Shown here: in pieces, positions 23,716 through 38,078 of the stretch
Position numbering within the stretch: the first letter of the stretch is position 1
How the letters are laid out: every line of letters starts with the position of its first letter
Assembly: GCA_965203175.1 (NCBI GenBank)
Contig: OZ241867.1
Coordinates: forward strand, 2,208,001 to 2,272,000
Length of the DNA: 64,000 nucleotides
Source: Candidatus Latescibacterota bacterium
Lineage (GTDB): Bacteria > Latescibacterota > UBA2968 > UBA8231
Direction: 5' to 3'
The notes under the pieces: generated by a model
What the model was told of the DNA's origin: nothing
Databases searched by the model: none
Seen by the model: only the letters and a program-made list of their open reading frames with translations
Position numbers and translations under genes: made by a program

Positions 23716-24609
23716 ATGTCCGTTCGCTTTGCCTTCCTCACCGATACTCACCACTACCCCGACGCCCCCGCAGACTACGGCGCTCCCAAGATGCTCACCC
23801 GCAGCCAGGAGGTGCACGACGCGATTCCCCCCGCCCTCAACGCGCAGGCTTTCGACTTTGTCGTCCACGGCGGCGACTTTCTCTGCGGAGGGTCGGCCTT
23901 TGACCTGCCCACCGAGACCTATTTGCGCTCGATTGACGAGGTGGTCACGGCCTTCGCGCGGCTTGAGGCCCCTTTCTACTCGGTCCCCGGCAACCACGAC
24001 TGCGACGCTCAGAGCGGTTCCTTCGATGGTTTTGCCGCCCGTTTTCCCTATCCCGATCCGCTGACCGTCGTCGATGCTGCGCCGCGTCTGCGACTGGCAC
24101 TGGCCCATGTCTTCTACGACTGCGATGTCTTTGAGAAAGGGTCTGGCGTCTGGACCGACGCGCTAGACGAGGCTCTGCGCGCTGCTGCTGCTCAAGCCCT
24201 AGCCGATGGCTGCGCGTTGCTGCTCGTTATGCACACTTGGATTTTGCCCGATTTCGCTTGGGACCGCGGCGTGGTCGCAGGCGCGCCTCGTCTGGTCAAA
24301 ACGCTCGACGAAAGCCCTGCTATCGTCGCTGCTTTCACCGGCCATCGCCACATCAACCGCATCACTGCCTACCGCGACTACCTAGTTGTCGATACGGCCT
24401 GTCTGATCGGCTTTCCCTTGGGGTATCGCAGCGTTGAACTCTCGGACGATGGCTTTTTCAAGACGCGCTTCCACACCCTCGACCTGCCCGATCTGATGCA
24501 AGCTTCCTACGACCGCTCGACGCCCGAGGAGAACTGGGTCTGGGAAGGCCACATCTTCGACCGGGACGTGGATATCCTGTCGCCTCGGCTCAGGGCGCTG
24601 TGGGGTTGA
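23716..24609 (+). CDS. Calcineurin-like metallophosphoesterase (Icc/CpdA-like)
   Basis: TDTH, GGD, GNHD, MH, GHRH motifs. Confidence 0.88.
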   Translation: MSVRFAFLTDTHHYPDAPADYGAPKMLTRSQEVHDAIPPALNAQAFDFVVHGGDFLCGGSAFDLPTETYLRSIDEVVTAFARLEAPFYSVPGNHDCDAQSGSFDGFAARFPYPDPLTVVDAAPRLRLALAHVFYDCDVFEKGSGVWTDALDEALRAAAAQALADGCALLLVMHTWILPDFAWDRGVVAGAPRLVKTLDESPAIVAAFTGHRHINRITAYRDYLVVDTACLIGFPLGYRSVELSDDGFFKTRFHTLDLPDLMQASYDRSTPEENWVWEGHIFDRDVDILSPRLRALWG

Positions 24610-24662
24610 ACGGGGCGACTTAGCGACTGCTCCATAAAACCTTATCGCCAGAGTCTGCTCAT

Positions 24663-26879
24663 TCACTTTCGGCCACCATAGCGGTTTAAGAGCTCGGCTG
24701 TCTCAGTAGCATTGTGTTCCGTCGCAATGTACAGCGGTGTCCGGCCCTCGTCGCTCTCAGCGTTGACCTCGGCTCCTTGGGTCAGCAAGACTTCGGTCGT
24801 TTCAGCCGCGTTGTGTGCTGCCGCCCAGTGTAGCGGAGTCCGGCCATATTGGTCCTTTTCGTTGCTGTTGGCTCCCTGTGTCAGCAAGACTTTGGCCGTT
24901 TCAGCCGCGTTGTTCCACGCCGCCTGGTGCAGTGGTGTCTGGCCATATTGGTCCTTTTCGTTGCTGTTGGCTCCCTGTGTCAGCAAGACTTTGGCCGTTT
25001 CAGCCGCGTTGTTCCACGCCGCCCAGTGTAGCGGAGTCCGGCCCAATGTGTCCTTGGCACAGATCTCGGCTCCTTGCTTCAGTAAGAGTTGGGCTGTTTC
25101 CGTCGCATTTTTTGCTGCTGCCCAGTGCAGTGGTGTCGCCTCCTCGCTGTTCTTGGTGTTGACTTCGGCACCTTGGGTCAGTAACAGTTGGGCTGTCTCA
25201 GTCGCATTGTGATTCGCCGCATTGTGTAGCGGTGTCCGGCCGTTGTTGCCCTTGGCGTTTATCTCAGCTCCTTGCGCGATCAACAATTGGGCGGTTTCGA
25301 TTGCATTTTCCCACGCTGCACTGTGCAGTGGCGTATTGCCAGATTCGTCCTTTTCGTTGCTGTTGGCTCCCTGTGTCAGCAAGACTTTGGCCGTTTCAGC
25401 CGCGTTGTTCCACGCCGCCTGGTGCAGTGGTGTCTGGCCATATTGGTCCTTTTCGTTGCTGTTGGCTCCCTGTGTCAGCAAGACTTTGGCCGTTTCAGCC
25501 GCGTTGTTCCACGCCGCCCAGTGTAGCGGAGTCCGGCCCAATGTGTCCTTGGCACAGATCTCGGCTCCTTGCTTCAGTAAGAGTTGGGCTGTTTCCGTCG
25601 CATTTTTTGCTGCTGCCCAGTGCAGTGGTGTCGCCTCCTCGCTGTTCTTGGTGTTGACTTCGGCACCTTGGGTCAGTAACAGTTGGGCTGTCTCAGTCGC
25701 ATTGTGATTCGCCGCATTGTGTAGCGGTGTCCGGCCGTTGTTGCCCTTGGCGTTTATCTCAGCTCCTTGCGCGATCAACAATTGGGCGGTTTCGATTGCA
25801 TTTTCCCACGCTGCACTGTGCAGTGGCGTATTGCCAGATTCGTCCTTTTCGTTGACGTTGGCTCCCTGTGTCAGCAAGACTTTGGTCGTTTCAGCCGTAT
25901 TGTTCCACGCTGCCCAGTGTAGTGGCGTCAGGCCCAATGTGTCCTTGGCGCAAATCTCGGCTCCTTGCGTCAGCAACAGGTTGGCCGTTTTGTTTGCATT
26001 TTCTGCTGCTGCCCAGTGCAGTGGTGTCGCCTCCCTGCTGTCCTTGGTGTTGACGTCGGCCCCCCATGTTATTAACAGTTGGACCACCGTTTCAGCCGCG
26101 TTGTTTGCTGCCGCCCAGTGTAGCGGTGTCCGGCCCAATGTGTCCTTGGCGTAGATGTCGGCACCTTGGGTCAGTAAGAGCTGGGCTGTTTCGGTTGCAT
26201 TGTTCCACGCCGCAGAATGCAGCGGTGTTGCGCCCGCAGAATGCAGCGGTGTTGCGCTCTGGTCGGTTTTGGCGTTTATCTCAGCACCTTGGGTCAGTAA
26301 GAGCTGGGCTGTTTCGTTCGCATTTTTCTGCGCCGCTTGGTGCAGTGGTGTCGCGCCATATTCGTCCTTTTCGTTGATGTTGGCTCCCTGTGTCAGCAAG
26401 ACTTCGGTCGTTTCAGCCGCGTTGTTCCACGCCGCCCAGTGTAGCGGAGTCCGGCCCGATGTGTCCTTGGCACAGATCTCAGCTCCTTGCGTTAGTAACA
26501 GGTGGGCTGTTTCCGTCGCATTGTTTACTGCTGCCCAGTGCAGAGGTGTCGCCTCCTTGCTGTCCTTGGTGTTGACGTTGGCCCCCCATGTTATTAACAG
26601 TTGGACCGTTTCAGCCGCGTTTTCTGCTACCGCCCAGTGTAGCGGAGTCCGGCCCAATGTGTCCTTGGCATAGATCTCGGCTCCTTGCGTTAGTAACAGG
26701 TGGGCTGTTTCCGTCGCATTGTTTACTGCTGCCCAGTGCAGTGGTGTCGCCTCCTCGCTGTCCTTGGTGTTGACGTCTTGGATATTGGCGAACACAAGGA
26801 AGCCAATGACCAAGAGCACCACTGCGCCCAAGATCTCCAATCGCCGGGCTTTAGTCTTTTTTGGCGGTCCGTTGCTCAT
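24663..26879 (-). CDS. Membrane-anchored ankyrin repeat protein 1 (~21 repeats)
   Basis: Basic N-terminus plus TM segment, GxTPLHxAAxxN repeats, C-cap LLNRYGGRK. Confidence 0.93.
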   Translation of the reverse strand: MSNGPPKKTKARRLEILGAVVLLVIGFLVFANIQDVNTKDSEEATPLHWAAVNNATETAHLLLTQGAEIYAKDTLGRTPLHWAVAENAAETVQLLITWGANVNTKDSKEATPLHWAAVNNATETAHLLLTQGAEICAKDTSGRTPLHWAAWNNAAETTEVLLTQGANINEKDEYGATPLHQAAQKNANETAQLLLTQGAEINAKTDQSATPLHSAGATPLHSAAWNNATETAQLLLTQGADIYAKDTLGRTPLHWAAANNAAETVVQLLITWGADVNTKDSREATPLHWAAAENANKTANLLLTQGAEICAKDTLGLTPLHWAAWNNTAETTKVLLTQGANVNEKDESGNTPLHSAAWENAIETAQLLIAQGAEINAKGNNGRTPLHNAANHNATETAQLLLTQGAEVNTKNSEEATPLHWAAAKNATETAQLLLKQGAEICAKDTLGRTPLHWAAWNNAAETAKVLLTQGANSNEKDQYGQTPLHQAAWNNAAETAKVLLTQGANSNEKDESGNTPLHSAAWENAIETAQLLIAQGAEINAKGNNGRTPLHNAANHNATETAQLLLTQGAEVNTKNSEEATPLHWAAAKNATETAQLLLKQGAEICAKDTLGRTPLHWAAWNNAAETAKVLLTQGANSNEKDQYGQTPLHQAAWNNAAETAKVLLTQGANSNEKDQYGRTPLHWAAAHNAAETTEVLLTQGAEVNAESDEGRTPLYIATEHNATETAELLNRYGGRK
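24853..25854. repeat. Apparently exact 495-bp tandem duplication (5 ankyrin repeats)
   Basis: Sequence at 24853 recurs at 25348 and the protein block is duplicated verbatim. Confidence 0.8.
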
Positions 26880-26955
26880 TTCGTTTCTCGCAATCGGGTG
26901 GTAGTGTCTGGTGGTGTTGGCGGCTGCGTTGGGTTTTTGCTATTGCTCTCTTGAG

Positions 26956-27260
26956 CGCATCACTGCCTACCGCGACTATCTAGTTGTCGATACGGCCTGT
27001 CTGATCGGCTTTCCCTTGGGGTATCGCAGCGTTGAGCTTACTGACGATGGCTTTTTCAAGACGCGCTTCCACACTCTCGACCTGCCCGATCTGATGCAAG
27101 CTTCCTACGACCGCTCGACGCCCGAGGAGAATTGGGTCTGGGAAGGCCACATCTTCGACCGGGACGTGGATATCCTGTCGCCTCGGCTCAGGGCGCTGTG
27201 GGGCTGAACGGGGCGACTTAGCGACTGCTCCATAAAACCGTATCGCCAGCGTCTGCTCAT
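26956..27260 (+). pseudogene. Duplicated 3' fragment of metallophosphoesterase gene plus downstream spacer
   Basis: Near-identical to 24358..24662 (RITAYRDY...LRALWG*), with no 5' part. Confidence 0.9.
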
Positions 27261-29333
27261 TCACTCTCGGCCACCATAGCGGTTTAATAGCTGGGCTGTC
27301 TCAGTAGCATTGTGTTCCGTCGCAATGTACAGCGGTGTCCGACCCTCGTCGCTCTCAGCATTGACCTCGGCTCCCTGCTTAAGCAGCAGTTCGGCTGTCG
27401 TAGCAGCATCCGTCTCTGCCGCATCGTGCAGCGGCGTCCGGCCCTTGTCGGCTTTGGCGTTTATCTCGGCTCCTTGCGTTATCAACAATTGGGCTGTTTC
27501 GGTTGCGTTGTCCTCTGCCGCCCAGTGTAGCGGTGTCCGGCCCTTGTCGGTTTTGGCGTTTATCTCAGCTCCTTGCGTCAGTAACAGCTGGGCTGTTTCA
27601 GTCGCATTGTACCAGGCCGCCTCGTGTAGTGGCATCCATCTCTTGTTGTCCTTTTCGTTGACGTCGGCCCCTTGCGTCAGTAAGAGTTGGGCTGTTTCGG
27701 TTGCGTTGTTCCTCGCCGCCCAGTGCAGCGGTGTCTGGCCCAATGTGTCCTTGGCACAGATCTCGGCTCCTTGCGTCAGTAAGAGTTGGGCTGTCTCAGT
27801 CGCATTTTTTGCTGCTGCCCAGTGCAGTGGTGTCGCCTCCTCGCTGTTCTTGGTGTTGACTTCGGCTCCTTGGGTTAGTAAGAGTTGGGCTGTCTCAGTC
27901 GCATTGTGATTCGCCGCATTGTGTAGCGGTGTCCGGCCGTTGTCGGCTTTGGCATTTATCTCAGCTCCTTGCGCGATCAACAATTGGGCTATTTCGATTG
28001 CATTTTCGCACGCCGCATTGTGTAGCGGTGTCCGGCCGTTGTCGGCTTTGGCATTTATCTCAGCTCCTTGTGCGATCAACAATTGGGCTATTTCGATTGC
28101 ATTTTCCCACGCTGCACTGTGCAGTGGCGTATTGCCAGATTCGTCCTTTTCGTTGACGTTGGCTCCCCGTGTCAGCAAGACTTCGGTCGTTTCAGCCGCG
28201 TTGTGTACTGCCGCATTGTGTAGCGGTGTCCGGTCCTGGTCGGTTTTGGCGTTAACTTCGGCTCCTTGGGTTAGTAAGAGTTGGACTGTCTCAGTAGCAT
28301 TGTGATTCGCCGCATTGTGTAGCGGTGTCCAGCCCTGGTCGGCTTTGGCGTTTATCTCAGCTCCTTGCGCGATCAACAATTGGGCTATTTCGGTTGCATT
28401 TTTGCACACTGCATTGTGCAGTGGCGTCACGCCAGATTCGCTCTTTTCGTTGACGTTGGCTCCCTGTGTCAGCAACAGGTTGGCCATCTCAGCCGCGTTG
28501 TTCCACGCCGCCCAGTGTAGTGGCGTCAGGCCCAATGTGTCCTTGGCGCAAATCTCGGCTCCTTGCGTTAGTAAGAGTTGGGCTGTTTCAGTCGCATTTT
28601 TCCACGCGGCATAATGCAGCGGTGTTGCGCTCTGGTCATTTTTGGCGTTTATCTCAGCTCCTTGGGTCAGTAAGAGTTGGGCTGTTTCGGTTGCGTTGTT
28701 CCTCGCCGCATAGTGCAGCGGTGTCCCGTCTTTGTCGTTTTTGGCGTTTATCTCAGCTCCTTGCGTTAGCAACAATTGGGCTGTTTCAGCCGCATTGTAC
28801 CAGGCCGCAGTGTGTAGCGGCATATACCCATATTTATTCTTTTCGTTGATTTTGGCTCCCTGTGTCAGCAAGACTTTGGCCGTTTCAGCCGCGTTGTTTG
28901 CTGCCGCCCGGTGCAGTGGTGTCTCGCCATATTCATCCTTTTCGTTGATTTTGGCTCCCTGTGTCAGCAAGAGCTCGGTCGTTTCAGCCGCGTTGTTTGC
29001 TGCCGCCCAGTGTAGCGGAGTCCGGCCCAATGTGTCCTTGGCACAGATCTCGGCTTCTTGAGTTAGTAACAGTTGGGCCGTTTCAGTCGCATTTTTCCAC
29101 GCCGCCCAGTGCAGTGGTGTCGCCTCCTCGCTGGTCTTGGCGTTGACGTTAGCCCCCCATGTTAGTAACAGTTGGGCCGTTTCGGTTGCATTTTTCCTCG
29201 CCGCCCGGTGCAGTGGTGTATTGTCAGCCTTTATATTGACGAACACAAGGAAGCCAATGACCAAGAGCACCACTGCGCCCAAGACCTTGGCCAATCGCCG
29301 GACTTTAGTCTTTTTTGGCGGTCTGTTGCTCAT
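27261..29333 (-). CDS. Membrane-anchored ankyrin repeat protein 2 (~20 repeats)
   Basis: Same leader, repeat consensus and C-cap as gene 1. Confidence 0.93.
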   Translation of the reverse strand: MSNRPPKKTKVRRLAKVLGAVVLLVIGFLVFVNIKADNTPLHRAARKNATETAQLLLTWGANVNAKTSEEATPLHWAAWKNATETAQLLLTQEAEICAKDTLGRTPLHWAAANNAAETTELLLTQGAKINEKDEYGETPLHRAAANNAAETAKVLLTQGAKINEKNKYGYMPLHTAAWYNAAETAQLLLTQGAEINAKNDKDGTPLHYAARNNATETAQLLLTQGAEINAKNDQSATPLHYAAWKNATETAQLLLTQGAEICAKDTLGLTPLHWAAWNNAAEMANLLLTQGANVNEKSESGVTPLHNAVCKNATEIAQLLIAQGAEINAKADQGWTPLHNAANHNATETVQLLLTQGAEVNAKTDQDRTPLHNAAVHNAAETTEVLLTRGANVNEKDESGNTPLHSAAWENAIEIAQLLIAQGAEINAKADNGRTPLHNAACENAIEIAQLLIAQGAEINAKADNGRTPLHNAANHNATETAQLLLTQGAEVNTKNSEEATPLHWAAAKNATETAQLLLTQGAEICAKDTLGQTPLHWAARNNATETAQLLLTQGADVNEKDNKRWMPLHEAAWYNATETAQLLLTQGAEINAKTDKGRTPLHWAAEDNATETAQLLITQGAEINAKADKGRTPLHDAAETDAATTAELLLKQGAEVNAESDEGRTPLYIATEHNATETAQLLNRYGGRE

Positions 29334-29352
29334 TTCGTTTCTCGCAATTGGG

Positions 29353-29468
29353 TGGGTCTGGGAAGGTCACATCTTCGACCGGGACGTGGATATCCTGTCG
29401 CCTCGGCTCAGGGCGCTGTGGGGTTGAACGGGGCGACTTAGCGACCCTTATCGCCAGCGTCTGCTTAT
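29353..29468 (+). pseudogene. Shorter duplicated phosphoesterase 3' fragment plus spacer (12-bp deletion)
   Basis: Matches 24535..24662 (WVWEGHIFDRDVDILSPRLRALWG*). Confidence 0.88.
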
Positions 29469-32156
29469 TCACTCTCGGCCACCATAGCGGTTTAATAGCT
29501 CGGCTGTCTCAGTAGCATTGTGTTCCGTCGCAATGTACAGCGGTGTCCGACTCTCGTCGCTCTCAGCATTGACCTCGGCTCCCTGCTTAAGCAGCAGTTC
29601 GGCTGTCGCAGCAGCATCCATCTCTGCCGCCCAGTGTAGCGGTGTCTGGCCCTCGTCGGTTTTGGCATTTATCTCGGCACCTTGGGTCAGTAAGAGTTGG
29701 GCTGTTTCGGTTGCGTTGTCCTCGGCCGCCCAGTGTAGCGGTGTCTGGCCCTCGTCGGTTTTGGCGTTTATCTCGGCACCTTGGGTCAGTAAGAGTTGGG
29801 CTGTTTCGGTTGCATTTTTCCACGCCGCATAGTGCAGTGGTGTCGCCTCCTCGCTGTTCTTGGTGTTGACGTCGGCCCCTTGGGTCAGTAACAGTTGGGC
29901 TGTCTCAGTAGCATTGTGATTCGCCGCATTGTGTAGCGGTGTCCGGCCGTTGTCGGCTTTGGCGTAGATGTCGGCTCCTTGCGCGATCAACAATTGGGCT
30001 ATTTCGATTGCATTTTCGCACGCTGCATTGTGTAGTGGTGTCCGGCCGTTGTCGGTTTTGGCGTTTATTTCAGCTCCTTGCGCGATCAACAATTGGGCTG
30101 TTTCGATTGCATTTTCCCACGCTGCCCTATGCAGTGGCGTATTGCCAGATTCGTCCTTTCCGTTGACGTTGGCTCCCTGTGCCAGCAAGATCTTGGCCGT
30201 TTCAGCCGCGTTGTGTACTGCCGCACTGTGCAGCGGTGTCCGGCCGTTGTCGGTTTTGGCGTTTATTTCAGCTCCTTGCGCGATCAACAATTGGGCTGTT
30301 TCGATTGCATTTTTGCACACTGCATTGTGCAGTGGCGTATTGCCATCTTGGTCCTTTTCGTTGATGTTGGCTCCCTGTGTCAGTAAGAGTTGGGCTGTTT
30401 CCGTCGCATTGTTTGCCGCCACCCAGTGTAGCGATGTCTGGCCATATTCATTCTTTTCGTTGGTTTTGGCTCCCTGCGTTATCAACAATTGGGCTGTTTC
30501 GGTTGCATTTTTCCACGCCGCAAAATGCAGCGGAGTCGATCCCTTGTCGGCTTTGGCGTTTATCTCGGCTTCTTGGGTCAGTAAGAGTTGGGCTGTTTCG
30601 GTTGCGTTGTTCCACGCGGCAAAATGCAGCGGTGTCTCGCCATCTTGGTCCTTTTCGTTGATGTTGGCTCCCTGTGTCAGCAAGACTTTGGTCGTTTCAG
30701 CCGCGTTGTTCCACGCCGCCCAGTGTAGCGGAGTCCGGCCCAATGTGTCCTTGGCACAGATCTCGGCTCCTTGAGCTAGTAACAGTTGGGCTGTTTCCGT
30801 CGCATTTTCTTCTGCTGCCCAGTGCAGTGGTGTTGCTTCCTCGCTGTTCTTGGTGTTGACGTTGGCCCCCCATGTTAGTAACCGTTGGGCCGTTTTAGTC
30901 GCATTGTGATTCGCCGCATAGTGTAGCGGAGTCGATCCCTTGTTGTCCTTGGCGTAGATGTCGGCTCCTTGCGTTAGTAAGAGTTGGGCTGTTTCGGTTG
31001 CGTTGTTCCTCGCCGCAGAATGCAGCGGTGTCACCTCCTTGCTGTTCCTGGTGTTGACGTTGGCCCCCCATGTTATTAACAGTTGGGCTGTTTCAGCCGC
31101 GTTGTTCCCCGCCGCATAGTGTAGCGGAGTCGATCCCTTCTTGCCCTTGGCGTTTATCTCGGCTTCTTGGGTCAGTAAGAGTTGGGCTGTTTCGGTTGCG
31201 TTGTGCCACGCCGCAGAATGCAGCGGTGTCTCGCCCTCGTCGGTTTTGGCGTTTATCTCAGCGCCTTGGGTCAGTAAGAGTTGGGCTGTTTCGGTTGCGT
31301 TGTTCCCCGCCGCCCGGTGCAGTGGTGTCTCGCCATATTTATTCTTTTCGTTGATGTTGGCTCCCTGTGTCAGCAAGACCTCAGTCGTTTCAGCCGCGTT
31401 GTGTACTGCCGCCCAGTGTAGTGACGTCAGACCCAAGGTGTCTTTGGCGCAAATCTCGGCTCCTTGCGTCAGCAACAGGTTGGCCGTTTTGTTTGCATTT
31501 TCTGCTGCTGCCCAGTGCAGTGGTGTCGCCTCCTCGCTGTTCTTGGTGTTGACGTTGGCCCCCCATGTTATTAACAGTTGGGCCGTTTCAGCCGCGTTGC
31601 CTATCGCCGCCCAGTGTAGCGGTGTCGATCCCTTGTCGGCTTTGGCGTTTATCTCGGCCCCTTGGGTCAGTAAGAGTTGGGCTGTTTCGGTTGCGTTGTT
31701 CCACGCTGCAAAATGCAGCGGCGTCGATCCCTTGTCGGCTTTGGCGTTTATCTCGGCCCCTTGGGTCAGTAAGAGTTGGGCTGTTTCGGTTGCGTTGTTC
31801 CTCGCCGCCCGGTGCAACGGCGTCTCGCCATATTTATTCTTTTCGTTTATCTCAGCGCCTTGGGTCAGTAAGAGTTGGGCTGTTTCGGTTGCGTTGTTCC
31901 ACGCTGCCCAGTGTAGCGGTGTGTGGCCCTTGTCGTTTCTGGCGTTTATCTCGGCCCCTTGGGTCAGTAAGAGTTGGGCTGTTTCCGTCGCATTGTTTGC
32001 TGCTGCCCGGTGCAGTGGTGTCGCCTCCTCGCTGTTCTTGGTGTTGACGTCTTGGATATTGGCGAACACAAGGAAGCCAATGACCAAGAGCACCACTAGG
32101 CCCAAGACCTTGGCCAATCGCCGGACATTAGTCTTTTTTGGCGGTCCGTTGCTCAT
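29469..32156 (-). CDS. Membrane-anchored ankyrin repeat protein 3 (~26 repeats)
   Basis: Same leader, repeat consensus and C-cap. Confidence 0.93.
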   Translation of the reverse strand: MSNGPPKKTNVRRLAKVLGLVVLLVIGFLVFANIQDVNTKNSEEATPLHRAAANNATETAQLLLTQGAEINARNDKGHTPLHWAAWNNATETAQLLLTQGAEINEKNKYGETPLHRAARNNATETAQLLLTQGAEINAKADKGSTPLHFAAWNNATETAQLLLTQGAEINAKADKGSTPLHWAAIGNAAETAQLLITWGANVNTKNSEEATPLHWAAAENANKTANLLLTQGAEICAKDTLGLTSLHWAAVHNAAETTEVLLTQGANINEKNKYGETPLHRAAGNNATETAQLLLTQGAEINAKTDEGETPLHSAAWHNATETAQLLLTQEAEINAKGKKGSTPLHYAAGNNAAETAQLLITWGANVNTRNSKEVTPLHSAARNNATETAQLLLTQGADIYAKDNKGSTPLHYAANHNATKTAQRLLTWGANVNTKNSEEATPLHWAAEENATETAQLLLAQGAEICAKDTLGRTPLHWAAWNNAAETTKVLLTQGANINEKDQDGETPLHFAAWNNATETAQLLLTQEAEINAKADKGSTPLHFAAWKNATETAQLLITQGAKTNEKNEYGQTSLHWVAANNATETAQLLLTQGANINEKDQDGNTPLHNAVCKNAIETAQLLIAQGAEINAKTDNGRTPLHSAAVHNAAETAKILLAQGANVNGKDESGNTPLHRAAWENAIETAQLLIAQGAEINAKTDNGRTPLHNAACENAIEIAQLLIAQGADIYAKADNGRTPLHNAANHNATETAQLLLTQGADVNTKNSEEATPLHYAAWKNATETAQLLLTQGAEINAKTDEGQTPLHWAAEDNATETAQLLLTQGAEINAKTDEGQTPLHWAAEMDAAATAELLLKQGAEVNAESDESRTPLYIATEHNATETAELLNRYGGRE

Positions 32157-32175
32157 TTCGTTTCTCGCAATTGGG

Positions 32176-32303
32176 TGGGTCTAGGAAGGTCACATCTTCG
32201 ACCGCGACGTGGATATTCTGTCGCCTCGGCTCAGGGCGCTGTGGGGCTGAACGGGGCGACTTAGCGACTGCTCCATAAAACCGTATCGCCAGCGTCTGCT
32301 CAT
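32176..32303 (+). pseudogene. Duplicated phosphoesterase 3' fragment plus spacer with TGG>TAG stop
   Basis: Matches 24535..24662; same left junction as the copy at 29353. Confidence 0.88.
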
Positions 32304-34298
32304 TCACTCTCGGCCACCATAGCGGTTTAATAGCTCGGCTGTCTCAATAGCATTGTGATTCGTCGCAATGTGTAGTGGTGTTAGGCCCTCGTCGCTCTCA
32401 GCGTTGACTTCGGCTCCCTGCTTAAGCAGCAGTTCGGCTGTCGCAGCAGCGTCCGTCTCTGCCGCATCGTGCAGCGGCGTCAGCCCCTTGTCGTCTTTGG
32501 CGTTTATCTCGGCACCTTGGGTCAGTAAGAGTTGGGCTGTTTCGGTTGCGTTGCCCATCGCCGCTAAGTGTAGCGATGTCCGGCTACATTTGTCCTTTTC
32601 GTGAACATCGGCTCCTTGGGTCAGTAAGAGTTGGGCTGTTTCCGTCGCATTTTTCCACGCCGCAGAATGCAGCGGTGTCTGGCCTTCGTCGGCTTTGGCG
32701 TTTATCTCAGCTCCTTGCGCGATCAACAATTGGGCTGTTTCGATTGCATTTTCGCACACTGCATTGTGCAGTGGTGTCTGGCCATATTCGTCCTTTTCGC
32801 TGACGTTGGCTCCTTGGGTTAGTAAGAGTTGGGCTGTTTCAGCCGCGTTGTTCCACGCCGCAGAATGCAGTGGTGTCTGGCCATACTTATTCTTTTCGTT
32901 GCTGTTGGCTCCCTGTGTCAGCAAGACTTTGGCCGTTTCAGCCGCGTTGTTTGCTGCCGCCCGGTGCAGTGGCGTCTCGCCATATTCATCCTTTTCGTTG
33001 CTGTTGGCTCCCTGTGTCAGCAAGACTTTGGCCGTTTCAGCCGTATTTTTCCACGCCGCCCAGTGTAGCGGAGTCCGGCCCAATGTGTCCTTGGCGCAAA
33101 TCTCGGCTTCTTGAGTTAGTAACAGTTGGGCTGTTTCAGTCGCATTTTTCCACGCCGCCCAGTGCAGTGGTGTCGCCTCCTCGCTGTTCTTGGTGTTGAC
33201 GTCGGCTCCTTGGGTTAGTAACAGTTGGGCTGTTTCAGCCGCGTTGTTCCACGCCGCATGGTGCAGCGGTGTCTCGCCCTTATCGGCTTTGGCGTTTATC
33301 TCAGCTCCTTGTGCGATCAACAATTGGGCTGTTTCGTCGGCATTGTTCCATGCCGCATAGTGCAGCGGCATGTCGCCATCTTGCTCCTTTTCGTTGACGT
33401 TGGCTCCCCGTGTCAGCAAGACTTTGGTCGTTTCAGCCGCGTTGTTCCACGCCGCCCAGTGTAGCGGTGTCTGGCCCAATGTGTCCTTGGCACAGATCTC
33501 GGCACCTTGCGTCAGCAACAGGTTGGCCGTTTTGTTTGCATTGTTTGCTGCTGCCCAGTGCAGTGGTGTCGCCTCCTCGCTGGTCTTGGTGTTGACGTTG
33601 GCCCCCCATGTTATTAACAGTTGGGCCGTTTCAGCCGCGTTGTGTGCTGCCGCATCGTGTAGCGGAGTCGATCCCTGGTCGTTTTTGGCGTTTATCTCGG
33701 CCCCTTGGGTCAGTAAGAGTTGGGCTATTTCGGTTGCATTTTTCCACGCCGCATAATGCAGCGGTGTTGCGCTGTGGTCGTTTTTGGCGTTTATCTCGGC
33801 CCCTTGGGTCAGTAAGAGTTGGGCTGTTTCGGTTGCGTTGTTCCTCGCCGCCCAGTGTAGCGGTGTCCGGCCATATTCGTCCTTTTCGTTGATGTTGGCT
33901 CCCTGTGTCAGCAAGGCTTTGGCCGTTTCAGCCGCGTTGTTCCACGCTGCCCGGTGCAGTGGTGTCTGGCCTTCTTGGTCCTTTTCGTTGATGTTGGCTC
34001 CCTGTGTCAGCAACAGGTTGGCCATCTCAGCCGCGTTGTTCCACGCCGCCCAGTGTAGCGGTGTCCGGCCCAATGTGTCCTTGGCACAGATCTCGGCTCC
34101 TTGCGTCAGTAAGAGTTGGGCTGTTTCGGTTGCGTTGTTTGCTGCTGCCCAGTGCAGAGGTGTCGCCTCCTCGCTGTTCTTGGTGTTGACGTCTTGGATA
34201 TTGGCGAACACAAGGAAGCCAATGACCAAGAGCACCACTGCGCCCAAGATCTTGGCCAATCGCCGGACTTTGGTCTTTTTAGGCGGTTCGTTGCTCAT
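32304..34298 (-). CDS. Membrane-anchored ankyrin repeat protein 4 (~19 repeats)
   Basis: Same leader, repeat consensus and C-cap. Its upstream ~77 bp matches that of gene 1 (26880..26956). Confidence 0.93.
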   Translation of the reverse strand: MSNEPPKKTKVRRLAKILGAVVLLVIGFLVFANIQDVNTKNSEEATPLHWAAANNATETAQLLLTQGAEICAKDTLGRTPLHWAAWNNAAEMANLLLTQGANINEKDQEGQTPLHRAAWNNAAETAKALLTQGANINEKDEYGRTPLHWAARNNATETAQLLLTQGAEINAKNDHSATPLHYAAWKNATEIAQLLLTQGAEINAKNDQGSTPLHDAAAHNAAETAQLLITWGANVNTKTSEEATPLHWAAANNANKTANLLLTQGAEICAKDTLGQTPLHWAAWNNAAETTKVLLTRGANVNEKEQDGDMPLHYAAWNNADETAQLLIAQGAEINAKADKGETPLHHAAWNNAAETAQLLLTQGADVNTKNSEEATPLHWAAWKNATETAQLLLTQEAEICAKDTLGRTPLHWAAWKNTAETAKVLLTQGANSNEKDEYGETPLHRAAANNAAETAKVLLTQGANSNEKNKYGQTPLHSAAWNNAAETAQLLLTQGANVSEKDEYGQTPLHNAVCENAIETAQLLIAQGAEINAKADEGQTPLHSAAWKNATETAQLLLTQGADVHEKDKCSRTSLHLAAMGNATETAQLLLTQGAEINAKDDKGLTPLHDAAETDAAATAELLLKQGAEVNAESDEGLTPLHIATNHNAIETAELLNRYGGRE

Positions 34299-34520
34299 TT
34301 CGGTTCTCGCAATTGGGTGGTAGTGTCTAGTGGTGTTGGCGGCTGCGTTGGGTTTTTGTTATTGCTCTCTTGAGCCGACATTTGCTTTGCGCGATGGCTC
34401 CCTGATGTCTAAAACATAATGTAGCTTAGTATAGATGTCGGTTGAAGCTCATGGCAAGCGTCGGTGCCGCGTTGCGGAGACTGTAACTTAAAATCACATC
34501 TTTCTCGGAGGAGTAATCCC

Positions 34521-35327
34521 ATGAGCCGCGATCTTCCCCGTACCATTTTAGGCCGCACCAATCTCGAGGTTACCCGATTCGGCATTGGCGGCACGTATTG
34601 CGAGACGGTCGATGGATACAAGGCTGCGCTCGATTGTGGCGTCAACTACGTCGATACGGCACGCAGCTATCAGGGCGGTGAAGACGAGAAGTTGATCGGC
34701 CAAGCGATCCAGGGCCGGCGTCACGATCTCATCGTAGCCAGCAAATCCGCGCGGCGCGGTGCCGAAGAGGCGCGCCAAGAGTTGCAAACCTCGTTGCGCG
34801 CGCTCAAAACGGACTACCTCGATATTTTCCAGCTCCACCATTTGAACACCGAAGAAGAACGCAACCAAGCGCTGGGCCCCGGCGGAGCATTAGAAGCCGC
34901 CCAACAAGCCCGCGAAGAGGGCCTAGTGCGCTTTATCGGCGTCACCGGACACGATTGGGTGCAAGTGGAACAGGCGGTCCGCACCGGTCATTTTGATACG
35001 GTACTTTGCTGGTATAATTGCGCGATGAAAGAGCCGGAAGAAACGGTTTTTCCCGCAGCGCAGGCCGCCAATACGGGCGTGGTGATCATGAACGCCTCGC
35101 GCAACGAGCGGTTGCTAAAAGGTCCCGGCGCGCCCGCTCCTGAACAATTCTATCGCTACGTGCTCAGCCACGACGCCGTGCATACCACGGTCATGGGTTT
35201 GCGGAGTATCGATCTCTTTGCACGAGTTGCCGCTAGTTTGTCGGAGCGCGAGATGATCACGCCAGAAGAGCGGGCTGAGCTCGAAGCCTATGGAGCACAG
35301 CAGCGGGCGTCTGGGGAGCTGGAATAA
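34521..35327 (+). CDS. Aldo/keto reductase
   Basis: LGRTNLEVT, VDTARSY, SLRALKTDYLDIFQLH, VRFIGVTGH. GGAGG SD. Confidence 0.9.
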   Translation: MSRDLPRTILGRTNLEVTRFGIGGTYCETVDGYKAALDCGVNYVDTARSYQGGEDEKLIGQAIQGRRHDLIVASKSARRGAEEARQELQTSLRALKTDYLDIFQLHHLNTEEERNQALGPGGALEAAQQAREEGLVRFIGVTGHDWVQVEQAVRTGHFDTVLCWYNCAMKEPEETVFPAAQAANTGVVIMNASRNERLLKGPGAPAPEQFYRYVLSHDAVHTTVMGLRSIDLFARVAASLSEREMITPEERAELEAYGAQQRASGELE

Positions 35328-36128: not shown

Positions 36129-36365
36129 GAGGCGATTTCCCAGGCTGGCAGGAACCACATCCCCAGCTATCGGCGGGATTGGGCGAAAACTTGGAGCTAG
36201 TGGACGAGTTGGAATATATCGGTTGAGGCCCAAGGCGAAACAAGCTGCGGTACTTGCGGCGCAGATGCGCCTGTGAGTTTTATTGATAGCAGGTATTTTA
36301 CCTAAAAGATTTACCAGACCCGCGATGCAGGTCAACAATCCGCTTCTACAAGAGGGATGCTGAAG

Positions 36366-38078
36366 ATGGCTAAACGGGAATTGCAGGGACAGGCTCCTTC
36401 GCCCGATGAGCGCTTTGAGCAACGGGTCGCGCATCTGCTTCAGCCTGAAGACATGAAGACCGAGCACTACCAATACGGGATCGAAGCCGTGGACGGGAAT
36501 CAGGCTTGGGCGCTCTTTTGCGCCAGCGGCGCTGGTGATCTGGCGCAGGTCAGCGCGTTGCTCGACCGCGATCCCAAGTTGGTCAATGCCCAGTACTGGT
36601 ACCAGTTTCCCATCCACATGGCGGTGCGCGAGGGCCATGCTGAGGTGGTCCAGCTACTGTTGCAGGCTGGGGCCGATCCGGGCCAGTCGCGTTATACTTA
36701 TAATTCGTGGGACAAGTTGCTAGCCATCGCCGAGGAGCGCGGCTACGGAGAAGTGCAGGCGCTGCTGGTGGCAGCGATGCGCGGGCGATTTGGCTACGAT
36801 CCGGGTTTTGTCGCGCTAGCCGAGGCGATCAAAGGCCGCGACCGGGCGCTGGTCGAGGCGGTGTTGGCCGAGCATCCCGACTTTATTCGCGCCGCCGATG
36901 CGTTGGGCAATGGGCCGCTGCACTGGGCGGCGCTGACGCGGCAAAACGACTTGGTGGATTTCTTTGTCGCGCAGGGTGCCGACCTCGAAGCTCGCCGCGC
37001 CGATGGCCAGACACCGCTATTGGTCTCGCTCAACGGCGACTACTGGTTTCGGACGCGCGATCTGCCGGCGGAAGCGCCGCGAGATCCGTGGGTTGTTACC
37101 CGCCACTTGCTCGCTTGCAGCGCGGAGTACGCTCTCAGCATTGCCTGTGCGGCTGGCGATGAAGATCGCGTCAATGAAGTGCTGGTGGCCGATCCGGCTC
37201 AGGCCCGTACTCTCGATGCCGGACGGCGCAGTCCGCTGTCCTATGCCGCTCGCAACGGCCATACCCGGATCGTCGAAAAATTGCTGGATTTGGGTGCCGA
37301 TCCCAATCAGCCCGAAGAAAACGCGTCGCGCGGCAAAGCACTCTTCGAGGCTTGCGCGGGTAACCATTTGGAGACAGTGAAACTGTTGCGCGAACGCGGT
37401 GCCGATCCCAATGCCGGGGTGGACTCTTCGGGCTCTTGCCTGACTATCGTCGAGTTCAATCACAGCAAGAAAGGCCAACAAATGCAGGCTCTGTTACGCG
37501 AATACGGTGCTGTGACGCCGCCTTATGCCATGGACGACGCGGCGCTGGAACGGGCGATGCGCGAGGGAGATGCTGTCATTTCGCACTCACAATTCCTGCA
37601 CGAGTTGATGGGACGGGATAATCCCGCGCTCATTGGCGTCTTCTTGGAAATCACACCGGATGTGGGCGACCTGTTCCAATTGACCGATATCTGGGGCGGC
37701 AACTATCCTTCAGACCCCGATACAATCCGCACCTTGGCCGACCGCGGCCTCGACCTGCACCGCGCCAACTGGATCGGCCGCACCTTTCTGCACGGCTGTG
37801 CGGAAAAGGGCGATGTTGCGGCGGCTCGCGTCTTTTTGGAGTTGGGAGCCGATATAGAGGCGGTCGAATTGGAATACGGAGGCACGCCTTTGGCCGCTGC
37901 GGCGCGCAAGGGGCAGGCGGAGATGGTGCGTTTTTTATTAGAACAAGGTGCCGATCCAGCCGCGCCAGCCGAGTCGCCTTGGGCGCAGCCGCTTTATTGG
38001 GCGGAGAAGGAAGGGCAGGGGGAAGTGGCGGAGTTGCTTAAGGAAAGGCTCAGAGGGAAAGGCGCTAGCGGCGATTAG
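36366..38078 (+). CDS. Cytoplasmic ankyrin repeat protein (divergent repeats)
   Basis: PIHMAVREGH, GPLHWAA, SPLSYAARNGH, TPLAAAARKG; no signal peptide. Confidence 0.88.
   Translation: MAKRELQGQAPSPDERFEQRVAHLLQPEDMKTEHYQYGIEAVDGNQAWALFCASGAGDLAQVSALLDRDPKLVNAQYWYQFPIHMAVREGHAEVVQLLLQAGADPGQSRYTYNSWDKLLAIAEERGYGEVQALLVAAMRGRFGYDPGFVALAEAIKGRDRALVEAVLAEHPDFIRAADALGNGPLHWAALTRQNDLVDFFVAQGADLEARRADGQTPLLVSLNGDYWFRTRDLPAEAPRDPWVVTRHLLACSAEYALSIACAAGDEDRVNEVLVADPAQARTLDAGRRSPLSYAARNGHTRIVEKLLDLGADPNQPEENASRGKALFEACAGNHLETVKLLRERGADPNAGVDSSGSCLTIVEFNHSKKGQQMQALLREYGAVTPPYAMDDAALERAMREGDAVISHSQFLHELMGRDNPALIGVFLEITPDVGDLFQLTDIWGGNYPSDPDTIRTLADRGLDLHRANWIGRTFLHGCAEKGDVAAARVFLELGADIEAVELEYGGTPLAAAARKGQAEMVRFLLEQGADPAAPAESPWAQPLYWAEKEGQGEVAELLKERLRGKGASGD

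What the first reader, a model, noticed from the sequence alone, without database searches (positions are those of the whole stretch)
24663..34298. Ankyrin variation is concentrated at target-binding positions on a near-invariant scaffold
Seen: the framework TPLHxAAxxNAxETAxLLxxQGAxxNxK is almost fixed. The residue after TPLH takes at least 12 identities (W,R,S,N,Y,Q,D,H,F,T,E,L), and the beta-turn residues and the two residues after AA also vary widely. Established: these are roughly the positions randomised in designed DARPins. Many variant codons are NNT (AAT,TAT,GAT,CAT,TTT,ACT,AGT,TCT). Inference: diversifying selection on a binding surface. A trans-acting adenine-biased mutator is possible but has no support here.
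Basis: partly seen in the sequence, partly recalled or inferred. Interest (0 to 1): 0.7.

Follow-up and report, generated by a model that had tools for sequence, protein, structure and literature searches.

The report
Tandem exported ankyrin-repeat genes, variable groove
Four neighbouring genes of an uncultured Latescibacterota bacterium encode long, exported ankyrin-repeat proteins whose repeats differ mainly at the usual ligand-contact positions of this fold, which is the ordinary pattern for ankyrin repeats rather than proof of an arms race or a special mutator.

Summary
Window 24663-34298 (minus strand) carries four tandem paralogous genes. Each encodes a basic N-terminus, one hydrophobic helix, and 19-26 ankyrin units of 33 residues; there are 87 units in all. 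Seven of the 33 positions (5, 8, 9, 29, 30, 31, 33, with T of TPLH as 1) hold about half of the amino-acid entropy. The same seven positions lead in 166 units from ten related genomes.

The scaffold is under strong purifying selection (dN/dS 0.10-0.23). The variable sites evolve at about the synonymous rate: 0.6-1.2 in pairs chosen without looking at the unit itself, and 1.1-1.6 in a parsimony tree count. Positive selection is therefore not shown.

These are the positions that are most variable in natural ankyrin repeats generally and that designed libraries randomise (PMC4308713).

A diversity-generating retroelement is excluded:
- the only reverse transcriptase is a group II intron enzyme;
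- there is no template copy;
- there is no adenine-specific pattern.

The most notable result is that the locus is a syntenic hot-spot. Related species carry 1-2 genes with 6-20 units between the same flanking genes.

The parts
32304..34298 (-). Gene D, 664 aa: N-terminal anchor, 18 full ankyrin units and a C-cap. It lies next to the aldo/keto reductase gene, and its unit order is the most collinear with the single genes of related species.
   Evidence: AlphaFold2 single-sequence model (mean pLDDT 64) shows helix 11-37 followed by 19 helix pairs
29469..32156 (-). Gene C, 895 aa: anchor, 25 full units and a C-cap
27261..29333 (-). Gene B, 690 aa: anchor, 19 full units and a C-cap
24663..26879 (-). 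Gene A, 738 aa: anchor, 19 full units, one 34-aa unit, one 8-aa partial unit and a C-cap. Its penultimate unit differs from those of B, C and D.
34194..34298 (-). N-terminal module of gene D (MSNEPPKKTKVRRLAK + ILGAVVLLVIGFLVFANI), taken as a Sec signal-anchor or signal peptide. The same module opens genes A, B and C and the homologues in related genomes.
   Evidence: translations. Highest 15-residue Kyte-Doolittle window is 3.17, following 5-6 K/R. Modelled as one long helix, 11-37. No signal-peptide predictor was available.
24843..25934 (-). Recent in-frame 495-nt (5-unit) tandem duplication inside gene A. Units A10-A13 are identical to A15-A18; A14 and A19 are 95% alike.
   Evidence: TRF: period 495, 2.2 copies, 97% matches; unit identities
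26880..27260 (-). B-A spacer. Window 26956-27260 is a 305-nt copy (96.7% identical) of 24358-24662, the 3' end of the convergent phosphoesterase gene plus the intergenic stretch. This shows that the tandem gene duplication carried a piece of the neighbouring gene. The 94-aa ORFs at 24382-24666 and 26980-27264 are antisense readings of this sequence.
   Evidence: no Pfam match for the 94-aa ORFs
29334..29468 (-). C-B spacer. It shares the first ~125 nt after the stop codon and the last ~20 nt before the start codon with the other spacers.
32157..32303 (-). D-C spacer, with the same conserved ends
23716..24609 (+). Flanking calcineurin-like phosphoesterase gene, a conserved synteny anchor
   Evidence: Pfam Metallophos E 6.5e-11. 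Found full-length at 92-97% aa identity beside the ankyrin gene in 9 of 11 related loci, and cut off by the end of the fetched stretch in a tenth.
34464..35327 (+). Flanking aldo/keto reductase gene, a conserved synteny anchor
   Evidence: Pfam Aldo_ket_red E 2.9e-29; found at 91-95% aa identity in 8 of 11 related loci

Best explanation
The region is a four-gene tandem family of exported or membrane-anchored ankyrin-repeat solenoids in a Candidatus Latescibacterota genome.

Each 33-residue unit keeps a fold-determining scaffold under strong purifying selection. Its differences sit on the concave face: helix-1 positions 5, 8, 9 and beta-turn positions 29-31 and 33. These sites change by ordinary point substitution at roughly the neutral rate.

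The unit types are old. Unit-to-unit synonymous divergence is about 0.9, whereas flanking genes differ between species by only 0.15-0.34. The types are shared among related species.

Arrays are rebuilt by unit duplication, deletion and unequal recombination, and by tandem gene duplication, at one fixed chromosomal site. The result is a long groove lined by many different, Trp/Asn/Arg/Asp-rich unit surfaces.

Inferred function: extracytoplasmic binding of several ligands, or of one extended ligand, most likely of a host. No dedicated mutator is involved.

Shown: the anatomy, the selection regime, the synteny and the absence of a DGR. Inferred: export topology, ligand binding and host association.
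For: Anatomy and fold:
- PDB sequence matches: E 1e-140 to an extended DARPin, 1e-110 to ankyrin-1.

Concentration of variation:
- It is replicated in 166 units of ten other genomes, where the same seven positions have 2.48-3.03 bits.

Scaffold dN/dS:
- 0.10, all pairs of 77 distinct units.
- 0.13-0.15, tree count.
- 0.12-0.23, neighbour-anchored pairs.

Variable-site dN/dS near 1:
- 0.63-0.90, or 0.78-1.19 after kappa correction, in 23-47 neighbour-anchored pairs.
- Own-codon ratio 1.1-1.5.
- Tree count 1.08-1.60.

Age of the units:
- Scaffold pS 0.53 between units, against flank dS 0.15-0.34 between species.
- About 15 main unit types are shared across genomes, with partly conserved order.

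Rearrangement:
- A 495-nt duplication lies inside gene A.
- A copy of the neighbour gene's 3' end lies in the B-A spacer.
- Between the same flanks, related species carry 1-2 genes with 6-20 TPLH-type motifs each.

Export:
- The N-terminal module is conserved across species at 86-98% nt identity, leaving out gene A, which has a one-codon indel.
- It combines K/R-rich residues with a hydrophobic window of KD 3.17.
- Seven other ankyrin-bearing ORFs of the genome (of 15 other ANK places examined) start with a hydrophobic, signal-peptide-like N-terminus.

Non-random composition:
- W makes up 41% of residues at positions 5 and 8.
Against: - Two sites exceed the global synonymous rate in the parsimony count. 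Position 5 is at 1.4-1.9 fold and position 33 at 1.6-2.0 fold (Poisson p between about 1e-5 and 1e-4). Some positive selection at a few sites is therefore not excluded.
- A dN/dS near 1 for the class can hide a mixture of constrained residues (the many Trp) and positively selected ones.
- All estimates use counting methods on 99-nt units that recombine. No likelihood site model could be run.
- Export rests on sequence features only.
- No ligand, expression level or host is shown. RNA-library contigs cover pieces of the locus but do not prove transcription.
Confidence: 0.7

Rival explanations
1. Diversifying (positive) selection, as in a host-symbiont or phage-bacterium arms race, drives amino-acid replacement at the groove positions.
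For: - Tree-based counts give a class omega of 1.25-1.60 (window units) and 1.08-1.38 (pooled units).
- Position 5 is at 1.43-1.87 and position 33 at 1.55-1.96 times the global synonymous rate.
- In the seven codons, entropy at codon positions 1 and 2 exceeds that at position 3.
- Residues at these sites are those typical of binding hot-spots: W, N, R, Y, S, D.
- Ankyrin proteins of symbionts are linked to host interaction in the literature (PMC4986451 discussion passages; PMC12993501 passages).
Against: - The only design free of ascertainment on the unit itself gives 0.63-0.90, and 0.78-1.19 with kappa 2.6-3.6. The bootstrap probability of omega <= 1 is 0.80-1.00.
- Positions 29-31 are at or below 1 in every design.
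- In 47 neighbour-anchored pairs the residue is unchanged in 31-39 pairs at each variable site.
- The same entropy profile is generic to natural ankyrin repeats (PMC4308713).
Confidence: 0.2
2. A diversity-generating retroelement or another targeted, adenine-biased mutator writes the variation, turning AAY codons into NNY.
For: - At position 5, all 35 codons that end in a pyrimidine end in T (AAT, TAT, GAT, CAT, TTT, ACT, AGT, TCT), and all are reachable from AAT by changes at A.
- Position 9 is mostly NNC: 52 of 81 codons.
Against: - The genome (one 6.58-Mb contig) has a single RVT_1 match. It is a 586-aa enzyme with the QGGVLSP motif and a C-terminal HNH-like end, followed directly by an Rfam group II intron domain.
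- blastn of the whole locus against the genome finds no copy outside it except 45 nt in another ankyrin gene: 2 of 607 HSPs.
- Of the 33 high-entropy nucleotide columns, only 8 have A as the majority base, against 29 of 99 columns overall.
- The commonest codons at positions 5, 8 and 33 (TGG, TGG, CGG) cannot come from adenine changes of AAY.
- The variation is spread over 87 units in four genes and is shared with other species. A DGR gives one variable repeat near a 3' end.
Confidence: 0.02
3. The four genes form a recombination-driven repertoire. Frequent exchange of units within and between paralogues (concerted evolution plus shuffling, as in the highly conserved repeats of fungal NLRs) is the main generator of new binding surfaces, and the scaffold is uniform because of homogenisation.
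For: - Unit order differs strongly between paralogues and between species at one syntenic site, while the unit types are shared.
- A 5-unit block inside gene A is duplicated at 97-100% identity.
- Unit numbers run from 6 to 26 per gene.
- TRF sees super-periods of 198, 297, 396 and 495 nt.
Against: - Synonymous sites of the scaffold are close to saturation between units (pS 0.53). The uniform scaffold is therefore kept by selection on the protein, not by recent homogenisation.
- Mean unit identity is 65% aa and 70% nt, below the 85% used to define highly conserved repeats (PMC4986451).
- The N-terminal ends of the paralogues are no more alike within the genome (0.93-0.95) than between species (up to 0.98).
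- Short-read contigs could not show alternative junctions reliably.
Confidence: 0.1

Closest known systems
Generic ankyrin-repeat arrays and the designed libraries derived from them (DARPins; ANK-N5C, PMC4308713)
   Same: - 33-residue TPLH..AA..LL..GA..N unit.
- Variation sits on helix 1 and the beta-turn of the concave face. Our positions 30, 31, 33, 5 and 8 equal the ANK-N5C randomised positions 2, 3, 5, 10 and 13.
- PDB sequence match E 1e-140 to an extended DARPin.
   Different: - This is a natural protein.
- K28 (library position 33) is conserved here in 75 of 81 units.
- Positions 9 and 29 are also variable here.
- The scaffold is N-N-A-x-E-T-A in place of G-H-L-E-I-V.
- Trp dominates two groove positions.
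- Arrays have 19-26 units, against the five internal repeats of ANK-N5C (PMC4308713) and, as I recall and from no call, two or three in standard DARPins.
Eukaryotic-like ankyrin proteins of sponge-associated and other symbiotic bacteria. ANK was reported among the eukaryotic-like proteins of sponge Latescibacterota MAGs (PMC12993501, passages read).
   Same: - Same phylum, with many ankyrin genes per genome: 107 Ank_2 matches in about ten loci here.
- N-terminal export signals are present.
- Of the 20 public runs holding part of the locus, four are labelled sponge (X15, X17, X18) or coral (X19) metagenome, three 'marine metagenome' (X8, X12 and the next-to-none-share X22) and three plain 'metagenome'; X18 and X19 hold only a 0.06 share, and the remaining runs have coded or blank names.
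   Different: - No function or host target is known for this family.
- The conserved N-terminal module plus C-cap was found only within the genus.
- Phage-borne ankyrin genes are at most 35% identical.
- The habitat of this genome itself was not established.
Highly internally conserved ANK/TPR/WD repeats of fungal NLRs (PMC4986451, abstract and passages read)
   Same: - Conserved repeat scaffold with hypervariable sites on the concave binding surface.
- Repeat-number variation.
- Unit reshuffling at a locus.
   Different: - No NOD/NACHT domain.
- Unit identity is 65% rather than above 85%.
- Synonymous sites are diverged, so there is no strong concerted evolution.
- Positive selection is not demonstrated.
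- The protein is exported rather than cytosolic.
Membrane-binding domain of animal ankyrins (24 repeats; PDB 7tw3, 4rlv)
   Same: A long uninterrupted solenoid of about 20-26 repeats. Sequence matches at E 1e-110 and 8e-102. That such solenoids have a long inner groove offering several adjacent binding sites is recalled knowledge, not from a call.
   Different: - Bacterial, and carries an N-terminal export or anchor helix.
- Has no spectrin-binding or death domains.
- Its repeats are far more alike than those of animal ankyrins.
Diversity-generating retroelement targets
   Same: Only the superficial NNT/NNC codon pattern at positions 5, 9 and 29.
   Different: There is no DGR-type reverse transcriptase, no template repeat and no adenine specificity, and the variation is shared across species.

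Membership tests
Ankyrin repeat (Pfam PF00023 / PF12796) | Tandem 33-residue units with the TPLH...AA...LL..GA..N signature, scoring above the curated cut-off | tested here: met
   Ank bits 467-634 and Ank_2 bits 475-785, against cut-offs of 21.1 and 27.3, for all four proteins
Ankyrin repeat (Pfam PF00023 / PF12796) | Helix-turn-helix plus beta-turn/loop secondary structure, stacked into a solenoid | tested here: met
   The model of gene D has 19 helix pairs (8 + 10-11 residues) separated by 13-14-residue loops. Confidence is only moderate (mean pLDDT 64, single sequence). Sequence alignment to solved DARPin and ankyrin-1 chains runs in register. No fold search was run.
Diversity-generating retroelement target | A DGR-type reverse transcriptase in the genome | tested here: not met
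   One RVT_1 match in 6.58 Mb. It is a group II intron enzyme with an Rfam Intron_gpII hit next to it.
Diversity-generating retroelement target | A template repeat nearly identical to the variable repeat, differing at adenines | tested here: not met
   No nucleotide match to the locus outside it beyond 45 nt. Variable columns are not enriched for A: 8 of 33 against 29 of 99.
Highly conserved (HiC) repeats of NLR-type receptors | More than 85% identity between repeats over at least 100 aa (definition in PMC4986451) | tested here: not met
   Mean pairwise unit identity is 65% aa and 70% nt. Only the 5-unit duplicate in gene A reaches the threshold.
Highly conserved (HiC) repeats of NLR-type receptors | A NOD (NACHT / NB-ARC) domain N-terminal to the repeats | tested here: not met
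   Pfam finds only ankyrin families above cut-off. The N-terminus is 35-45 residues of anchor.
Highly conserved (HiC) repeats of NLR-type receptors | Repeat-number variation at the locus | tested here: met
   6 to 26 units per gene and 1 to 4 genes at the syntenic site. This is between species, not within a species.
Highly conserved (HiC) repeats of NLR-type receptors | Positive selection at binding-surface codons | tested here: inconclusive
   omega is 0.6-1.2, 1.1-1.6, and 0.6-2.1 depending on how pairs were ascertained
Sec-exported eukaryotic-like protein of a host-associated bacterium | N-terminal signal peptide or signal anchor | tested here: inconclusive
   A K/R-rich n-region and a 15-19-residue hydrophobic stretch (KD 3.17), conserved across species. 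No signal-peptide or topology predictor was available, so cleavage versus anchoring is undecided.
Sec-exported eukaryotic-like protein of a host-associated bacterium | Host association of the organism and a host target | not testable with these tools
   Relatives are titled only as Candidatus Latescibacterota MAGs. Some runs holding parts of the locus are labelled sponge, coral or marine metagenome. No target is known.

The most novel reading that the evidence does not exclude
The four tandem genes act as a germline repertoire of interchangeable ankyrin binding modules. Unit exchange between the paralogues, together with replacement at groove positions 5, 8, 9 and 33, would give each strain its own set of exported recognition surfaces for host (for example sponge) or phage molecules. 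This would be a bacterial, secreted counterpart of the recombining hypervariable repeats of fungal NLRs.
Probability: 0.12. Interest if true: 0.6.

Novelty: new member of a known kind. Interest (0 to 1): 0.3.

Why it matters
Ankyrin-repeat proteins are a hallmark of symbiotic and host-associated bacteria, yet few have known targets. This locus offers a clean natural series. One chromosomal site is bounded by the same two housekeeping genes. Closely related species (flank dS about 0.2) carry between 6 and 87 units there, built from a shared set of unit types. That makes it a good system for asking how repeat arrays grow and what their groove residues bind.

For the scan, the lesson is methodological. 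Variation at 'DARPin positions' is the default for ankyrin repeats. dN/dS between repeat units also swings from 0.6 to 2.1 depending on how unit pairs are chosen, so such patterns should not be read as an arms race or a mutator without an ascertainment-free test.

Tried and rejected
- **DGR or mutator.** Rejected.
- **The 94-aa ORFs** overlapping the stops of genes A and B (24382-24666, 26980-27264). They have no Pfam match and are antisense readings of the phosphoesterase 3' end and its copy. They are not genes.
- **Close-pair dN/dS with pairs picked by similarity.** Results depended on the columns used for picking: 0.60-0.72 against 1.48-2.12. I replaced this with neighbour-anchored pairs. 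A first run of that script gave nonsense because a variable overwrote the codon table; it was repeated correctly.
- **Public runs.**
  - All four laid runs are short-read contigs that break into 100-300-nt pieces in the repeats.
  - The listed joints have sides under 31-33 nt, apart from two in the RNA run X18 with sides of 58 and 63 nt.
  - Nothing reliable can be said about within-population variants, alternative junctions or uncovered parts.
  - The RNA-library run X18 held only 0.06 of the words. Its contigs carry 5-14 differences, so they come from a relative and do not prove transcription.
- **Promoter and terminator scan.** 2 promoter-like sites against 3.0 expected, and 24 terminator-like sites against 22.4 expected, so no signal. 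One 10-of-12 site lies upstream of gene D at 34457-34428.
- **Phase variation through the A6 tract** at codons 6-8 of genes A-C. The tract is too short to argue for this, and gene D has A5.
- **NCBIfam.** Only sub-threshold hits through the ankyrin part, for example to Dot/Icm Ank effector models at 331 bits against a cut-off of 600. This is not membership.
- **Search for the N-terminal module in the 5.8-billion protein collection.** 2 hits among 86 candidates, covering only 47-53% of residues 1-60, and only proteins of 365-1162 aa were searched.
- **Earlier scan notes.** Nothing relevant was found. One look-up failed on a word format.
- **Not run.** No fold search was made on the model, because its confidence was moderate and the sequence matches to solved ankyrin structures were already decisive.

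Full report
**What is there.** The interval 24663-34298 holds four intact, head-to-tail ORFs on the minus strand:

| Gene | Coordinates | Length |
|---|---|---|
| D | 32304-34298 | 664 aa |
| C | 29469-32156 | 895 aa |
| B | 27261-29333 | 690 aa |
| A | 24663-26879 | 738 aa |

. All four score far above the Pfam cut-offs for Ank and Ank_2, and nothing else passes a cut-off.

Each protein has three parts. It starts with MSNxPPKKTKxRRL. A hydrophobic stretch follows (for example ILGAVVLLVIGFLVFANI). Then comes an uninterrupted run of 33-residue units, ending in a conserved cap (...TPLYIATEHNATETAELLNRYGGRE).

Anchoring on TPLH gives 87 units (22, 20, 26 and 19). Of these, 81 are exactly 33 residues, 4 are 25-residue caps, one is an 8-residue partial unit and one is a 34-residue unit. 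TRF reports the 99-nt period and super-periods of 198-495 nt.

**Checking the observation.**
- The residue after TPLH takes exactly the 12 listed identities.
- Entropy exceeds 2.2 bits only at positions 5, 8, 9, 29, 30, 31 and 33, numbering T of TPLH as 1. By my sum of the values, these seven positions carry about 53% of the total entropy.
- At position 5, 35 of 81 codons are NNT, and all eight listed codons occur.
- The concentration is not a local mutation-rate effect. Third-codon-position entropy is the same in the seven codons and in the other 26 (1.13 against 1.05 bits). First and second positions are 3.5-5 times more variable (1.46/1.28 against 0.42/0.24).
- The pattern replicates in independent data. 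In 166 units taken from homologues in ten other genomes, the same seven positions have the highest entropies, 2.48-3.03 bits.
- 'Near-invariant' is a little strong. Mean pairwise identity is 77% at the 26 other positions, 20% at the seven, and 65% overall.

**Where the variable positions sit.** A single-sequence AlphaFold2 model of gene D (mean pLDDT 64, so only its secondary structure is used) gives one long helix at residues 11-37, then 19 helix pairs.
- Helix 1 of each unit covers our positions 2-9.
- Positions 5, 8 and 9 (i, i+3, i+4) therefore share one helical face.
- Positions 29-33 lie in the loop before the next TPLH.

Sequence searches align the units in register with solved DARPins and ankyrin-1, at E 1e-140 and 1e-110.

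The ANK-N5C library paper states its scaffold as DxxGxTPLHxAAxNGHLELVKLLLEKGADINAx. It says positions 2, 3, 5, 10 and 13 were randomised because they have the highest entropy among natural repeats (PMC4308713, passages). In our numbering these are 30, 31, 33, 5 and 8. The DARPin set as I recall it (not from a call) adds our position 9.

It also means that this profile is what any natural ankyrin array is expected to show.

**Selection.** Comparing all pairs of the 77 distinct units, synonymous sites of the scaffold are close to saturation: pS 0.53, against pN 0.09, giving dN/dS 0.10. Variable-site pN is 0.54. The uniform scaffold is therefore maintained by purifying selection on the protein, not by recent homogenisation. 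All-pairs data cannot separate neutrality from positive selection at the variable sites, so I used four further designs.

| Design | Variable-site omega | Scaffold omega |
|---|---|---|
| (i) Disjoint closest pairs within the window | 0.81-1.11 (relative to overall pS) | 0.17-0.18 |
| (ii) Parsimony counts on a FastTree tree | class 1.25-1.60 (77 units), 1.08-1.38 (241 pooled units) | 0.13-0.15 |
| (iii) Pooled closest pairs chosen on all columns | 0.60-0.72 | - |
| (iii) Pooled closest pairs chosen on scaffold columns only | 1.48-2.12 | - |
| (iv) Neighbour-anchored pairs | 0.63 [0.41-0.86] in 23 pairs; 0.90 [0.68-1.14] in 39; 0.87 [0.71-1.05] in 47 | 0.14-0.17 |

Notes on these designs:
- In design (ii), only positions 5 and 33 are clearly above the global synonymous rate.
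- Design (iii) shows that ascertainment alone moves the answer. The ratio computed within the variable codons themselves was 1.1-1.5.
- Design (iv) accepts a unit pair only when both flanking units are at least 85-90% identical, so the unit itself plays no part in its selection.
- Weighting sites by the transition bias seen at four-fold sites (kappa 2.6-3.6) raises design (iv) to 0.78-1.19.
- In the 47 pairs of design (iv), the residue is unchanged in 31-39 pairs at each variable site.

Taken together, the variable sites evolve at about the synonymous rate, some five times faster than the scaffold. A rate above neutral is not demonstrated. Because W makes up 41% of residues at positions 5 and 8, these sites are not simply unconstrained. 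A mixture of conserved and changing residues is likely.

**No mutator.**
- The genome is one contig of 6.58 Mb and holds a single RVT_1 match.
- That ORF is 586 aa, carries the QGGVLSP motif and a C-terminal HNH-like end, and is followed at once by an Rfam group II intron match.
- blastn of the locus against the genome gives 607 HSPs. Only 2 lie outside the locus, both a 45-nt stretch in another ankyrin gene.
- Variable nucleotide columns are not enriched for adenine: 8 of 33 against 29 of 99.
- The NNT pattern at position 5 is best read as descent of those codons from a common NNT codon by first- and second-base changes.

**Context and history.** Neighbouring genes are ordinary chromosomal genes (LacI regulators, a TonB-dependent receptor, ThuA, a HAD hydrolase, a beta-lactamase-fold protein and others). 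I scanned 38 of the 51 ORFs selected in the window.

Close relatives of the protein lie in records titled Candidatus Latescibacterota: 5 of 7 loci, plus one labelled Gemmatimonadota and one distant planctomycete hit.

In 11 loci fetched from same-genus genomes, the family is recognisable by the same N-terminal module and C-cap. Both flanking genes (aldo/keto reductase and phosphoesterase) are found beside it in 8 of the 11 loci. One flank is found in 2 more loci, which are limited by contig or fetch ends. Neither is found in 1 locus, L019.

Those species carry one or two genes with 6-20 TPLH-type motifs each. This genome has four genes and 87 units.

Flank dS between species is 0.15-0.34, far below the unit-to-unit divergence. 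The same unit types recur across species in partly conserved order, for example ...DPRDSE or ...CFBA.... The unit types therefore predate these species, and the arrays have been rebuilt since.

Traces of the process:
- A 5-unit (495-nt) duplicate at 97-100% identity inside gene A.
- A perfect 24-nt duplication that creates the 8-residue partial unit.
- A 305-nt, 96.7% identical copy of the phosphoesterase gene's 3' end inside the B-A spacer. This also explains the two spurious 94-aa ORFs.

The N-terminal ends of the paralogues are not more alike within the genome than between species, so strong concerted evolution is not seen.

**Likely function.**
- Shown: the proteins are long ankyrin solenoids with an N-terminal K/R-rich segment and a very hydrophobic 15-19-residue stretch.
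- Inferred: by the positive-inside rule and the possible VFA/IKA cleavage motifs, they are exported by Sec and either anchored in the inner membrane or released. Seven other ankyrin-bearing ORFs of this genome (of the 15 other ANK places examined) also start with a hydrophobic, signal-peptide-like N-terminus, and the genome has 107 Ank_2 matches in about ten loci.
- Inferred: the concave groove, lined by unit-specific W/N/R/Y/S/D residues, binds extracytoplasmic partners.

Sponge-associated Latescibacterota are reported to carry ankyrin and other eukaryotic-like proteins (PMC12993501, passages). Some public runs holding parts of this locus are labelled sponge, coral or marine metagenome. The host or habitat of this genome was not established here, and no target is known.

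**Comparison and verdict.** This is a new, genus-restricted family of a well-known kind: exported ankyrin-repeat proteins of probably host-associated bacteria.
- It is not a DGR target.
- It is not a member of the NLR-type highly conserved repeats. It has no NOD domain, unit identity is 65% rather than above 85%, and synonymous sites are diverged (PMC4986451, abstract and passages). It does resemble them in having hypervariable concave-face sites and variable repeat number.
- Phage ankyrin genes are at most 35% identical.
- NCBIfam gives only sub-threshold hits.
- The N-terminal module was not found in the large protein collection, within the length range searched.

Interest is modest. The syntenic expansion from 6 to 87 units is the part worth following up.

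Noticed in passing
window 26210-26257 (gene A): A perfect 24-nt tandem duplication inserts an 8-residue partial unit (TPLHSAGA) into helix 1 of an otherwise regular array. It is probably a recent slippage event that locally disturbs the solenoid.
   Followed up: partly
window 26028-26129 (gene A, unit 7): One unit is 34 residues long because of a one-codon insertion (AETVVQLL).
   Followed up: no
window 24700-34300, plus strand: There are many long antisense ORFs (up to 347 aa, e.g. 31141-32184). AT skew on the plus strand is -0.38 to -0.48. The coding strand is A-rich and T-poor, so the antisense strand lacks stop codons. This is a composition artefact, not genes.
   Followed up: partly
window 36357-38078 (+): A fifth, unrelated ankyrin-repeat gene (573 aa) without a hydrophobic N-terminus lies 2 kb from the array, after a glyoxalase and an HTH gene.
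   Followed up: partly
genome C1:2087970-2101305 (about 110-120 kb upstream of the window start): A second cluster of very large ankyrin genes (ORFs of 810-1069 aa), 34-41% identical to the focal family. They share a signal-peptide-like N-terminus (...CLIGLVLS.. VGAEPLVEG) followed by a common non-ankyrin segment.
   Followed up: no
L001 = genome C1:4454996-4458649: A complete-looking group II intron: a 586-aa reverse transcriptase/maturase with an HNH-like end, and an Rfam domain V-VI match directly downstream. It is the only reverse transcriptase in the genome.
   Followed up: yes
units B1, C8, C14, D10 (e.g. window 33082-33180 for D10): The otherwise conserved Gly at position 22 is Glu (GGA to GAA, 'TQEAE') in 4 of 81 units, and in 6 of 166 units from other genomes. 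It is a conserved variant of a scaffold residue.
   Followed up: no
codons 6-8 of genes A, B, C (e.g. window 26857-26862): An A6 tract (CCAAAAAAG) sits at the 5' end of the coding region. It is A5 in gene D and A7 in one relative. It is probably too short for slippage-based switching.
   Followed up: partly
L016 (G013) and L015 (G003): In two related genomes the syntenic ankyrin gene is interrupted: by a TAA stop in G013, which also has a partial phosphoesterase copy like the one in this window, and by a TGA or undetermined bases in G003.
   Followed up: no
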